Assembly (NCBI GenBank): GCA_963667255.1
Contig: OY762940.1
Coordinates: 960,001 to 1,024,000, forward strand
DNA: 64,000 nt
DNA from: Candidatus Cloacimonadota bacterium
Lineage (GTDB): Bacteria; Cloacimonadota; Cloacimonadia; G963667145
Direction: 5' to 3'
Below, piece by piece: positions 30,891 through 32,436 of the stretch. Numbering within the stretch: the stretch's first letter is position 1; every line of letters begins with the position of its first letter. Both the position numbers and the translations under genes were made by a program. The notes under the pieces were generated by a model. The model was not told the origin of the DNA, searched no databases, and saw only the letters and a program-made list of their open reading frames with translations.

Positions 30891-30973
30891 TCAAGCACCT
30901 ATTTTTTACTCTGATAAGGATTAAAACCTTAAACATAAACAAAAATAGAAACGAGTGAAAAATAGGTGCTTGA
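30891..30973 (+). mobile_element. 23S intervening element 1 (approx. helix 10), ORF-less
   Basis: TCAAGCACCTATTTTTTACTC...GAGTGAAAAATAGGTGCTTGA, 83 bp. Confidence 0.88.
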
Positions 30974-31071
30974 GGCATACGCGGTGAATTGAAACATCTA
31001 AGGTAACCGCAGGAAAAGAAAATAAATAATGATTTCCTAAGTAGTGGCGAGCGAACGGGAAAGAGCCTAAA

Positions 31072-31149
31072 CCAAGCACCTATTTTTAATTCTGAGAAGG
31101 AATTGCAAACAGAATAGAGAATAGAAACGAGTTAAAAATAGGTGCTTGG
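31072..31149 (+). mobile_element. 23S intervening element 2 (approx. helix 15 region), ORF-less
   Basis: CCAAGCACCTATTTTTAATTC...GAGTTAAAAATAGGTGCTTGG, 78 bp. Confidence 0.88.
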
Positions 31150-31432
31150 GGTTGCGGGACTGCGATATCGGACTGATAGAGGATAGTCGAACTTAGCTGG
31201 AAAGCTGGAGCGAAGAAGGTGAAACTCCTGTAGACGAAATTCTGTATCTGCTGTAGCAGTATCCCAAGTAGGGCGGGGCACGTGAAACCCTGTCTGAATC
31301 TGCCGGGACCATCCGGTAAGGCTAAATACATTTTGCGACCGATAGTGAACTAGTACCGTGAGGGAAAGGTGAAAAGTACCCCGGAAGGGGAGTGAAATAG
31401 TATCTGAAACCGTATGTTTATAATCAGTCAGA

Positions 31433-31511
31433 CCAAGCACTTATTTTTAACTCTGATAAGGTATAATTAAACAGAGATAAGAATAGAAGCGAGTTAAAAG
31501 TAAGTGCTTGG
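31433..31511 (+). mobile_element. 23S intervening element 3 (approx. helix 25), ORF-less
   Basis: CCAAGCACTTATTTTTAACTC...GAGTTAAAAGTAAGTGCTTGG, 79 bp. Confidence 0.88.
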
Positions 31512-32123
31512 AATGGCGTGCCTTTTGTATAATGAGCTAGCGAGTTAATTTTGTCAGCAAGGTTAAATCATAAAGTGATGGAGCCGAAGCGAAAGCGAGT
31601 GTTAATAGCGCGTTTAGTTGGCAGGATTAGACCCGAAACCCGGTGATCTACCTATGGCCAGGTTGAAGTTTGGGTAAAACCAAATGGAGGACCGAACCAA
31701 CTGATGTTGAAAAATCAGTGGATGAGCTGTTGGTAGGGGTGAAAGGCCAATCAAACCGGGCGATATCTGGTTCTCTCCGAAAACTGTTTAGGCAGTGCCT
31801 CTTATTAGAATTGCGGGGGTAGAGCACTAATTAGGATAGGGGGCCTACAAGCCTACCGAACCTTAATAAACTCCGAATACCGTAATTTGATGTAAGGGAG
31901 ACAGTCTGTGGGGGATAAGCTCCATGGGCGAGAGGGAAAGATCCCTAACCGACGATTAAGGTCCCTAAATTTATACTTAGTGAGAAAGGATGTTTTATTG
32001 CAAAGACAGCCAGGATGTTAGCTTAGAAGCAGCTATCATTTAAAGAGTGCGTAATAGCTCACTGGTTAAGTGGTAATGCACCGAAGATGATCGGGACTGA
32101 TAAGTATAATACCGAAATCGCGG

Positions 32124-32436
32124 CCAAGCACCTATTTTTAATTTTGAATTAAGGAGTAGCTATGTATTATGTCTATTTACTGAAAGAAATAAATAGAAAC
32201 TTACATTATATTGGTTACACCAAGGATTTAAAACGACGGATTTCTGAGCATTTGAGTGGTAAGAGTGAGTATACAAGTTTTGGTAATTGGAAGCTTGTAT
32301 ATTATGAAGCTTATTTATCGGAAAGTGATGCGAGAAAAAGAGAAAGAATGCTGAAACAGAATGGCAATTCTAAAAGACATTTATTAAAGAGAGTTGAAAA
32401 TTCTGATAAAGTTTGAAGTTAAAAATAGGTGCTTGG
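32124..32436 (+). mobile_element. 23S intervening element 4 (approx. helix 45) carrying a GIY-YIG gene
   Basis: CCAAGCACCTATTTTTAATTT...AAGTTAAAAATAGGTGCTTGG, 313 bp. Confidence 0.92.
32162..32416 (+). CDS. Small GIY-YIG nuclease (UPF0213-like) inside the 23S rRNA gene
   Basis: MYYVYLL...YIGYTKDLKRRISEH...WKLVYYEAY...ARKRERMLK. AAGGAG RBS. Confidence 0.92.
   Translation: MYYVYLLKEINRNLHYIGYTKDLKRRISEHLSGKSEYTSFGNWKLVYYEAYLSESDARKRERMLKQNGNSKRHLLKRVENSDKV

What the first reader, a model, noticed from the sequence alone, without database searches (positions are those of the whole stretch)
30891..32436. Family of rRNA-helix intervening elements: one GIY-YIG-encoding copy and three MITE-like copies sharing one inverted repeat in a single 23S gene
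Seen: four insertions (30891-30973, 31072-31149, 31433-31511, 32124-32436) begin CAAGCAC(C/T)TATTTTT and end AAA(A/G)TA(G/A)GTGCTTG, each forming a ~20-bp stem. The 313-bp copy holds an RBS plus an intact 84-aa GIY-YIG ORF that fills the loop. The ~80-bp copies have no ORF but share interior motifs (TCTGA(T/G)AAGG...AAACA...AATAGAA(A/G)CGAGT). Flanking rRNA places them in about H10, H15, H25 and H45. Established: H25 and H45 are classic IVS sites, IVSs are normally cut out by RNase III without religation, and IVSs at different helices are usually unrelated. Inference: a single mobile lineage has spread among non-homologous helices of one rRNA gene, with an autonomous nuclease-bearing member and non-autonomous derivatives. 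The terminal stem may act both as a DNA end and as an RNA excision signal that keeps insertions harmless. No obvious target duplication or group I/II intron core is visible, so the mechanism is not simple site-specific homing.
Basis: partly seen in the sequence, partly recalled or inferred. Interest (0 to 1): 0.93.

Follow-up and report, generated by a model that had tools for sequence, protein, structure and literature searches.

The report
Hairpin-ended nuclease element invading rRNA helices
Four inserts in this bacterium's 23S ribosomal RNA gene belong to one family of hairpin-ended DNA pieces that stand in place of native hairpin tips and differ between the genome's two rRNA operons, and one copy carries a tiny nuclease gene that likely moves them, which would explain how some rRNA intervening sequences arise.

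Summary
Observation confirmed. Four inserts with near-identical 21-bp stems sit at 23S H10, H15, H25 and H45; the H45 copy encodes an intact 84-aa Slx1/UPF0213-type GIY-YIG protein (dN/dS 0.06). The genome's second operon has short native hairpins at H10 and H25 and a broken H45 ORF. Across 12 operons of six congeners the sites are filled 2, 10, 2 and 3 times, and filled alleles replace the native hairpin tip without target duplication. The same repeat occupies RNase P P12, a terminator and, collapsed, 16S h9. Relatives of the nuclease are enclosed by such repeats in 46/76 and 34/44 loci (controls 0/380, 2/220), at about ten rRNA helices in many phyla; outside RNA helices 6/21 show 4-7-bp duplications (replicate 0/4). 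Not shown: RNase III excision, nuclease activity, descent of ORF-less copies from the cassette. Closest known: IVSs, non-intron GIY-YIG inserts of CPR rRNA, and Ssn ssDNA nucleases (related, not a member). Likely a nuclease-driven hairpin element, spread further by gene conversion. This scan reported the family before in other genomes; this locus adds filled/empty alleles within one genome.

The parts
30891..30973 (+). ORF-less 83-bp hairpin element replacing the tip of 23S H10; the second operon has a 17-nt native hairpin here
31072..31149 (+). ORF-less 78-bp hairpin element at 23S H15; also in the second operon; filled in 10 of 12 genus operons, with a different GIY-YIG cassette at this site in G002
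31433..31511 (+). ORF-less 79-bp hairpin element replacing the tip of 23S H25; the second operon has a 15-nt native hairpin
32124..32436 (+). 313-bp nuclease cassette replacing the tip of 23S H45 (arms 32124-32144 and 32416-32436)
32151..32156 (+). Shine-Dalgarno-like AAGGAG, 5 nt before the ATG
32162..32416 (+). 84-aa single-domain GIY-YIG ORF (Slx1/UPF0213-like); Y3, Y5, Y16, G18, R26, H30, E61 invariant in 56 relatives; the copy in the second operon is broken
28508..28530 (+). Collapsed copy of the same repeat forming 16S h9 (both operons); inferred footprint of an older element
30741..34131 (+). Host 23S rRNA gene
28326..29891 (+). Host 16S rRNA gene

Best explanation
The four inserts are members of one family of hairpin-ended DNA elements that stand in place of native hairpin tips in structured-RNA genes, and the small GIY-YIG nuclease in the H45 copy likely drives their movement to new sites. 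Inferred steps: (1) The ORF is likely translated from the pre-rRNA or the excised insert through its own RBS. (2) By analogy with its relatives Ssn and Slx1, the protein likely binds the family's CC-N3-CAC stem when DNA is single-stranded or extruded, and nicks near the stem base. (3) Repair from, or insertion of, another repeat-bounded copy would put an element (with or without ORF) at the base of a hairpin. Outside RNA genes this leaves a 4-7-bp duplication; inside rRNA only outcomes where the new stem takes the place of the old tip would survive. (4) Once at a helix, alleles are likely gained, swapped and lost among operons and congeners by ordinary homologous gene conversion. Elements then decay by ORF loss and collapse to 23-28-nt hairpins that act as normal helix tips. 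(5) In the RNA the arms close a 21-bp stem that keeps the helix base intact, and long copies are likely cut out by RNase III as classical IVSs are.
For: Shown: the two operons of one genome differ at H10 and H25. Short alleles at H10, H25 and H45 resemble those of G002-G005, so the filled state is derived. One interior family occupies three helices in G000, and a second family links G001 H10 with G005 H15 (p 0.003). Same-helix interiors of G000 and G001 are not significantly alike (p 0.053, 0.395), so sequence moved or was homogenised between helices after these species split. The nuclease cassette itself sits at H45 in G000, G001 and G099, at H15 in G002, G009 and G011, and at H25 in G103. 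The repeat occupies RNase P P12 in three of six congeners and is collapsed in a fourth; it stands where G002-G004 have another terminator hairpin. Relatives are repeat-enclosed in 46/76 and 34/44 loci versus 0/380 and 2/220 controls, with a conserved CC-N3-CAC arm start. ORF-less same-repeat copies occur at other helices in L004, L010, L014, L015, L021, L025 and L026. Duplications of 4 or more bp occur in 6/21 non-RNA-helix cassettes (permutation p 0.0002). dN/dS is 0.06 and catalytic residues are invariant. Nearest structures are UPF0213 and Slx1. G-U:A-C is 48:2 in rRNA stems versus 29:24 elsewhere. An RNase III gene is present. SsnA, a related single-domain GIY-YIG, cuts ssDNA just 5' of its own hairpin (PMC11893778, section read).
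Against: No activity, excision or movement was observed. The duplication signal did not replicate (0/4), rests on five independent sites, and needed 10 loci with other arm types left out. ORF-less interiors match the cassette no better than chance after 78 comparisons (best p 0.003, then 0.03). G003-G005 carry ORF-less copies, and no match to this nuclease was found in them. The ORF's divergence between G000 and G001 (dS 1.49) equals that of host genes (0.65-2.05), so the H45 cassette may simply be vertically inherited. The nuclease tree cannot prove repeated site switching (starred branches force only 1-3 changes per label). No GIY-YIG protein is known to me to do strand transfer (recalled). 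G-U:A-C was weaker in the replicate (56:17).
Confidence: 0.58

Rival explanations
1. Host recombination alone. The inserts are classical IVSs. Old repeat-like stems at many helices act as docking arms, ectopic gene conversion swaps their interiors, and the nuclease is a passenger or homes only to its own helix.
For: Short alleles at H10, H45, 16S h9 and RNase P P12 already resemble the repeat. The G000 H10 insert keeps the native outer five pairs. Different alleles sit at H15 within G002 and within G005. No duplication in rRNA sites (0/15).
Against: At H25 and H45 the short alleles of G000/G001 share no arm with the element, yet are replaced at the exact helix base. Repeat-enclosed nuclease genes occur at about ten helices and at non-RNA sites with duplications. 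Purifying selection on the ORF needs continued activity.
Confidence: 0.22
2. The repeats are MITE/REP-type ends mobilised in trans by a separate transposase (HUH/RAYT or DDE); the GIY-YIG gene is cargo.
For: G000 has one Y1-transposase match at C1:209513 beside a different REP family, and about ten REP-like repeats that share the heptamer CAAGCAC. Duplications and MITE-gene-MITE composites resemble transposition.
Against: PF01797 matched 2 of 6 genus genomes (1 over cut-off; not G001 or G002, which carry cassettes). The GIY-YIG clade is the constant content of the repeats in two independent samples. DDE transposases were not searched.
Confidence: 0.1
3. RNA-mediated retro-insertion: the hairpin RNA is reverse-transcribed into a GIY-YIG nick, as in Penelope-like elements (recalled).
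For: All 26 plus 29 rRNA-embedded ORFs are in sense orientation. The G000 ORF-less copies share one orientation.
Against: No PF00078 match in G000-G003; one in G005; G004 not searched. RNase III cuts inside such stems (Coxiella IVS, PMC4990558 passages), which would remove the element's ends. Sense bias is also expected from selection for expression and G-U pairs.
Confidence: 0.06
4. Fixed expansion segments, convergent RNase III sites or a mis-assembly.
For: Collapsed copies (16S h9, RNase P P12) probably do act as ordinary helices, and no RNA data show excision.
Against: Presence/absence within G000, G001, G002 and G005; shared interiors; the same sites filled in a second closed genome; public-run contigs hold the intact H45 cassette and both short junctions (the best run may be the source sample).
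Confidence: 0.03

Closest known systems
Bacterial 23S rRNA intervening sequences (e.g. Coxiella burnetii H45 IVS, PMC4990558; Campylobacter H25/H45 IVSs, PMC2801512; passages read)
   Same: Sites H25 and H45, terminal inverted repeats forming a long stem, patchy presence even between operons of one strain, sometimes an internal ORF.
   Different: One repeat family at four 23S helices, 16S h9, RNase P P12 and a terminator; the ORF is a nuclease, not the four-helix-bundle S23 protein; relatives occur outside RNA genes with duplications. RNase III excision was not tested here.
GIY-YIG ORFs in non-intron insertion sequences of CPR rRNA genes (PMC11270868; part 1 of the distribution section and passages read)
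   Same: GIY-YIG genes in rRNA inserts unlike group I/II introns, scattered over several poorly conserved sites, judged by the authors to be outside spread by homing. Many of my relatives are from CPR genomes and are probably the same objects.
   Different: The main text has no occurrence of 'inverted repeat' and, in what I read, describes no shared ends, ORF-less family members, empty alleles or non-rRNA copies. Its supplements were not read.
Ssn nucleases with NTS/SRM hairpins (SsnA, cd10448; PMC11893778; abstract, three sections and passages read, 12 of 14 supplements searched for five terms)
   Same: Small single-domain GIY-YIG gene tied to its own inverted repeats; the authors suggest an IS-like origin. 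SRM-flanked 94-aa proteins from plasmids are 38-41% identical over 66 residues.
   Different: Ssn genes lie between complete 20-50-nt hairpins, whereas this gene lies inside one hairpin, with one arm each side. No SRM near this ORF or near 48 related cassettes. The C-terminal W-K..NP.W..L stretch of those proteins is absent. 'rRNA' does not occur in that paper's main text.
MITEs and their autonomous insertion sequences; REP/RAYT systems (recalled)
   Same: Terminal inverted repeats, gene-bearing and gene-less members, short duplications at some sites, MITE-gene-MITE composites.
   Different: No DDE or HUH transposase in the element; rRNA copies replace a hairpin without duplication; copy number is low (six long copies plus one terminator and two collapsed 16S copies besides RNase P in G000).
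Intron-encoded GIY-YIG homing endonucleases (I-TevI type; PMC1564403 passages)
   Same: GIY-YIG catalytic residues; filled/empty alleles and a broken copy, as in the homing cycle.
   Different: No intron core, no DNA-binding domain, many unrelated sites; sequence and fold are nearer Slx1/UPF0213 than I-TevI.

Membership tests
rRNA intervening sequence (IVS) | Extra sequence in place of a variable rRNA helix tip, closed by a long stem | tested here: met
rRNA intervening sequence (IVS) | Patchy presence among operons and strains | tested here: met
   2/12, 10/12, 2/12, 3/12 operons filled at H10, H15, H25, H45
rRNA intervening sequence (IVS) | Excised by RNase III without religation (fragmented 23S) | tested here: inconclusive
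   RNase III gene present; the four RNA runs laid hold mostly other organisms and are contigs
Group I/II intron with homing endonuclease | Ribozyme core | tested here: not met
   No intron family at Rfam gathering score; the ORF fills the loop
Group I/II intron with homing endonuclease | One conserved insertion site; nuclease with DNA-binding domain | tested here: not met
   About ten variable helices; 84-aa single domain; TIGR01453 21.9 bits versus cut-off 56
Ssn (cd10448) with NTS/SRM | Small single-domain GIY-YIG protein | tested here: met
Ssn (cd10448) with NTS/SRM | SRM hairpins flanking the gene | tested here: not met
   0 near the ORF, 0 of 48 related cassettes; the same pattern finds SRMs beside 2 of 3 plasmid controls
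Ssn (cd10448) with NTS/SRM | Placement in cd10448 / SsnA clade | tested here: inconclusive
   No CDD tool and SsnA itself not compared; SRM-flanked proxies score 58-59 bits on the family profile versus 68-123 for listed relatives and carry a different C-terminus
Ssn (cd10448) with NTS/SRM | Site-specific ssDNA cleavage | not testable with these tools
   needs biochemistry
MITE / insertion sequence | Terminal inverted repeats shared by gene-bearing and gene-less copies | tested here: met
MITE / insertion sequence | Target-site duplication | tested here: inconclusive
   None at the four window sites; 6/21 then 0/4 at non-RNA sites; 0/15 and 1/23 (mis-anchored) in rRNA
MITE / insertion sequence | DDE or HUH transposase in the autonomous member | tested here: not met
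   Only GIY-YIG-clan Pfam families match the ORF
MITE / insertion sequence | Gene-less copies are internal deletions of the autonomous member | tested here: inconclusive
   Interior-to-cassette similarity near chance

The most novel reading that the evidence does not exclude
A class of roughly 300-bp autonomous mobile elements whose only protein, a minimal GIY-YIG nuclease, acts as the transposase on its own hairpin ends and swaps them into hairpin-forming DNA. It would be a general source of rRNA intervening sequences and of variable helix tips in rRNA and RNase P RNA, which would be collapsed footprints of past insertions.
Probability: 0.4. Interest if true: 0.92.

Novelty: new variant of a known kind. 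Interest (0 to 1): 0.78.

Why it matters
IVSs have been known for decades, but no mobilising agent is established (recalled; the CPR survey leaves the GIY-YIG inserts unexplained). Here a nuclease gene, gene-less copies, collapsed footprints and filled/empty alleles lie in one small closed genome, so the question becomes testable with an 84-aa protein and 80-nt oligonucleotides. If the nuclease moves the element, GIY-YIG joins DDE, HUH and serine/tyrosine enzymes as a mobiliser, in one of the smallest autonomous elements. It would also mean that some hypervariable rRNA helices are not slow host evolution but element turnover, which matters for rRNA-based phylogeny.

Tried and rejected
RNA evidence: 18 RNA-type runs held at most 0.18 of the words; four were laid and showed mostly other organisms, as contigs: no verdict on fragmentation or expression. 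A two-arm pattern scan of metagenome contigs found 0. No relative of the nuclease in viral contigs, phages or plasmids at E 1e-5. A single-sequence fold was useless (pLDDT 57); the alignment-based model is used. The nuclease tree (103 rows, 87 columns, quick search only) is too weak to count site switches. Internal-deletion origin of the short copies was tested and not established. Orientation of ORF-less copies in other phyla was mostly uninformative because interiors are palindromic or unalike. One Rfam batch on 20 loci failed; BLAST to E. coli rRNA was used instead. Rfam on 24 non-rRNA loci found only tRNAs and one RNase P. Nine paper searches showed no description of this family, but they also missed the Ssn paper, so absence from print is not established; subscription journals are largely outside the library.

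Full report
Observation. The window holds one rrn operon (16S 28326-29891, 23S 30741-34131). Four inserts lie in the 5' half of 23S at 30891-30973, 31072-31149, 31433-31511 and 32124-32436. Each closes a 21-bp stem with one G-U pair, and the arms share 15-18 of 18 bases. The short copies fold far better than shuffles (z -5.5 to -7.2) and share their interiors. The long copy holds AAGGAG and an 84-aa ORF matching PF01541. Mapped on E. coli 23S, the sites are about 157-176, 273-283, 546-556 and 1167-1186: H10, H15, H25 and H45 (names recalled). Rfam finds no intron. The nearest named relative is labelled Ca. Cloacimonadota (L001).

The same genome has empty alleles. G000 is one 1.59-Mb contig with two operons. 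The second operon has a 17-nt hairpin at H10 and a 15-nt hairpin at H25, keeps the H15 copy, and keeps the H45 cassette with a broken ORF: a change at invariant Tyr3, a 4-bp deletion and a stop at codon 25. Contigs of a public run show both short junctions at about half the local depth and the intact H45 cassette without differences. That run may be the source sample, so it argues against mis-assembly but is not independent.

The genus shows replacement, not interruption. In 12 operons of six closed congeners, H10 is filled in 2, H15 in 10, H25 in 2 and H45 in 3. Short alleles at H10, H25 and H45 are alike across the genus, so they are the older state. At H25 and H45 the whole native hairpin is gone and the element starts at the helix base. 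At H10 of G000 the outer five native pairs remain. No duplication is present. G001 has one operon filled at H10, H25 and H45 and one with none. G002 carries a different GIY-YIG cassette (59% identical) at H15 in one operon and an ORF-less copy in the other. G009 and G011, in another family, have broken cassettes at H15; G099 has one at H45, and G103 one at H25 plus an ORF-less copy in 16S h9. The nine other class relatives with an assembled 23S showed no copy at these four sites.

Sequence has crossed between helices. The three G000 interiors are alike (p 0.003 each). G001 H10 matches G005 H15 (p 0.003). G000 and G001 interiors at the same helix do not match (p 0.053 and 0.395). Host genes of G000 and G001 differ at dS 0.65-2.05 (antisense and rRNA-overlapping frames disregarded), so neutral interiors should be saturated. 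The likeness inside G000 therefore needs movement or ectopic conversion after the split. Whether the short copies descend from the cassette is open: 78 comparisons gave one p of 0.003 and a few near 0.03-0.08.

The family is not confined to rRNA. A genome scan found two copies outside the operons. One is in P12 of RNase P RNA (Rfam): long in G000, G001 and G005, collapsed to 24 nt in G002, decayed in G003, unrelated in G004. The arm variant follows the genome: G002 and G005 use the CTGACACC form also seen at their H15. The other copy is a terminator-like hairpin after a ferredoxin-like gene in G000 and G001, where G002-G004 have a different hairpin. The 16S h9 hairpin is a collapsed copy in G000, and its sequence tracks the local arm variant across the genus. 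I read these as footprints; that is inference.

The design is widespread. Of the best 80 of 307 nuclease relatives in species genomes, L001 (same as G001) and three loci near contig ends were set aside; 46 of 76 are enclosed by an inverted repeat of score 12 or more, against 0 of 380 shifted controls. In the best 80 of 488 metagenome hits, after dropping 33 near-duplicates and 3 truncated loci, 34 of 44 were enclosed, against 2 of 220. Arms mostly begin CC-N3-C(A/C)C (38 of 46 anchor at CC). Cassettes sit in 16S near 63-101 and 432-507, in 23S near 130-177, 270, 540-555, 1166-1187, 1362-1373, 1706-1755, 1868-1877 and 2792-2808, and in RNase P P3. All 26 and all 29 rRNA-embedded ORFs are in sense. 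Several operons repeat the window's pattern: L026 (Desulfovermiculus) has the nuclease at H25 and five ORF-less copies at 16S h9, h44 and 23S H10, H15, H45; L015, L014, L010, L021, L025 and L004 have one to five extra copies. Four gammaproteobacteria carry MITE-gene-MITE composites at H25 with GGG-N4-6-CCC junctions. These samples are biased to proteins sharing exact peptides with the query.

Two roles for the stem. In rRNA-embedded cassettes non-Watson-Crick positions are G-U rather than A-C by 48:2 (22 elements); elsewhere the ratio is 29:24 (24 elements, whose script stopped with an error after printing these figures). Inside the aligned arms the ratios are 15:1 and 5:5. The replicate gave 56:17 in rRNA and 7:3 in four others. 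So RNA pairing is selected in rRNA, while outside rRNA the repeat persists with no RNA bias, as a DNA end would. At non-RNA-helix sites 6 of 21 cassettes have a direct duplication of 4-7 bp (TTGA twice, CTTG, TTTA, CGGTTAG twice at the same tRNA target; permutation p 0.0002), against 0 of 15 in rRNA; 10 loci with arms not led by CC were left out. The replicate had only four such sites and none was duplicated. I count this as suggestive.

The protein. dN/dS between G000 and G001 is 0.06 (dS 1.49, dN 0.089). Y3, Y5, Y16, G18, R26, H30 and E61 are invariant in 56 relatives. The model (pLDDT 93) and profile match UPF0213 proteins 1zg2 and 1ywl and Slx1 ahead of I-TevI and UvrC. PMC1564403 (passages) calls 1zg2 and 1ywl bacterial Slx1-family members, the minimal GIY-YIG form. 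There is no DNA-binding domain.

Comparison with known systems. As RNA features these are IVS-like: H25 and H45 sites, terminal stems, operon heterogeneity (PMC4990558 and PMC2801512, passages). That IVSs at different helices are usually unrelated is recalled, not checked. PMC11270868 (section part and passages) reports that all GIY-YIG ORFs in CPR rRNA inserts are in non-intron inserts at scattered, poorly conserved sites, and leaves them unexplained. An earlier scan note led me to PMC11893778 (three sections read): SsnA is a 94-aa GIY-YIG protein that binds its own hairpin in ssDNA and cuts a few bases 5' of it; the authors suggest an IS-like origin. Our protein is a relative (38-41% over 66 aa to SRM-flanked plasmid proteins) but has no SRM nearby (0 of 48 cassettes), a different C-terminus and a gene-inside-one-hairpin layout. 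It may work like Ssn; I do not file it as Ssn. Supplements of the CPR and IVS papers were not read and could hold more.

Mechanism. Shown: one repeat family, hairpin replacement, polymorphism, cross-helix sharing, association with a conserved nuclease. Inferred: the nuclease nicks at its own stem in single-stranded or extruded DNA, repair or insertion places a copy at a hairpin base, homologous conversion spreads it among operons, and RNase III (gene present) removes long copies from rRNA. A Y1 transposase (2 of 6 genomes) or a reverse transcriptase (1 of 5) fits the distribution poorly. Host-only ectopic conversion between old arms remains the strongest rival.

Verdict. Real and mobile in the evolutionary sense; a new variant of IVS that links IVSs to Ssn-like nucleases and MITE-like elements, with about a 0.4 chance of being a new transposon class. 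Earlier notes of this scan describe the same family in other genomes; they are unchecked and not counted as support.

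Noticed in passing
window 30035-30488 (ORF 30094-30441): A four-helix-bundle gene (PF05635/TIGR02436, the classical IVS protein) sits between tRNA-Ile and tRNA-Ala inside its own 22-bp inverted repeat. 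The spacer is 116-514 nt across the genus, so this second cassette is also polymorphic.
   Followed up: partly
window 27480-27866, and G000:C1:129309-129689: A different 128-aa GIY-YIG gene lies upstream of both rrn operons, followed by a pair of REP-like hairpins at about 27878-27975.
   Followed up: no
G000:C1:209513-209743 and about 20 sites genome-wide: A Y1-transposase (RAYT-like) match lies among copies of a CCCAAG-N-CTTGGG REP family.
   Followed up: partly
G000:C1:62348, 207646, 212347, 376933, 439452, 489417, 797579, 893387, 1391034, 1479610: About ten 41-45-bp repeats with CAAGCACA...TGTGCTTG ends, often near the REP family; they share seven bases with the rRNA element's arm and their relation to it is unknown.
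   Followed up: partly
L005, L047, L058, L060, L069, L073, L080: Related nuclease genes without an enclosing repeat lie just before tRNA genes and are preceded by an 18-38-bp or longer copy of the tRNA 5' end, a second insertion style.
   Followed up: partly
L064:3979-4256 and L077:3973-4273: Nuclease cassettes in P3 of RNase P RNA, with further hairpin copies downstream in the same RNA (L064 recognised by motif only).
   Followed up: partly
L006, L019, L031, L055 (23S H25): Composite inserts of 499-581 bp: two roughly 100-bp elements flank the nuclease gene, joined by GGG-N4-6-CCC spacers that resemble abutted ends.
   Followed up: partly
L152 (G011 23S, 3' half): A 748-bp insert with a 152-aa LAGLIDADG-like ORF, probably a group I intron, absent from G009 (family recalled from the motif, not scanned).
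   Followed up: no
window 23961-27428: A tandem pair of dynamin-like GTPase genes (PF18709, PF00350) upstream of the operon.
   Followed up: no
L092/L104 (G008 H25) and L097/L106 (G022 H10): Other hairpin inserts with unrelated arms at the same helices in class relatives.
   Followed up: no
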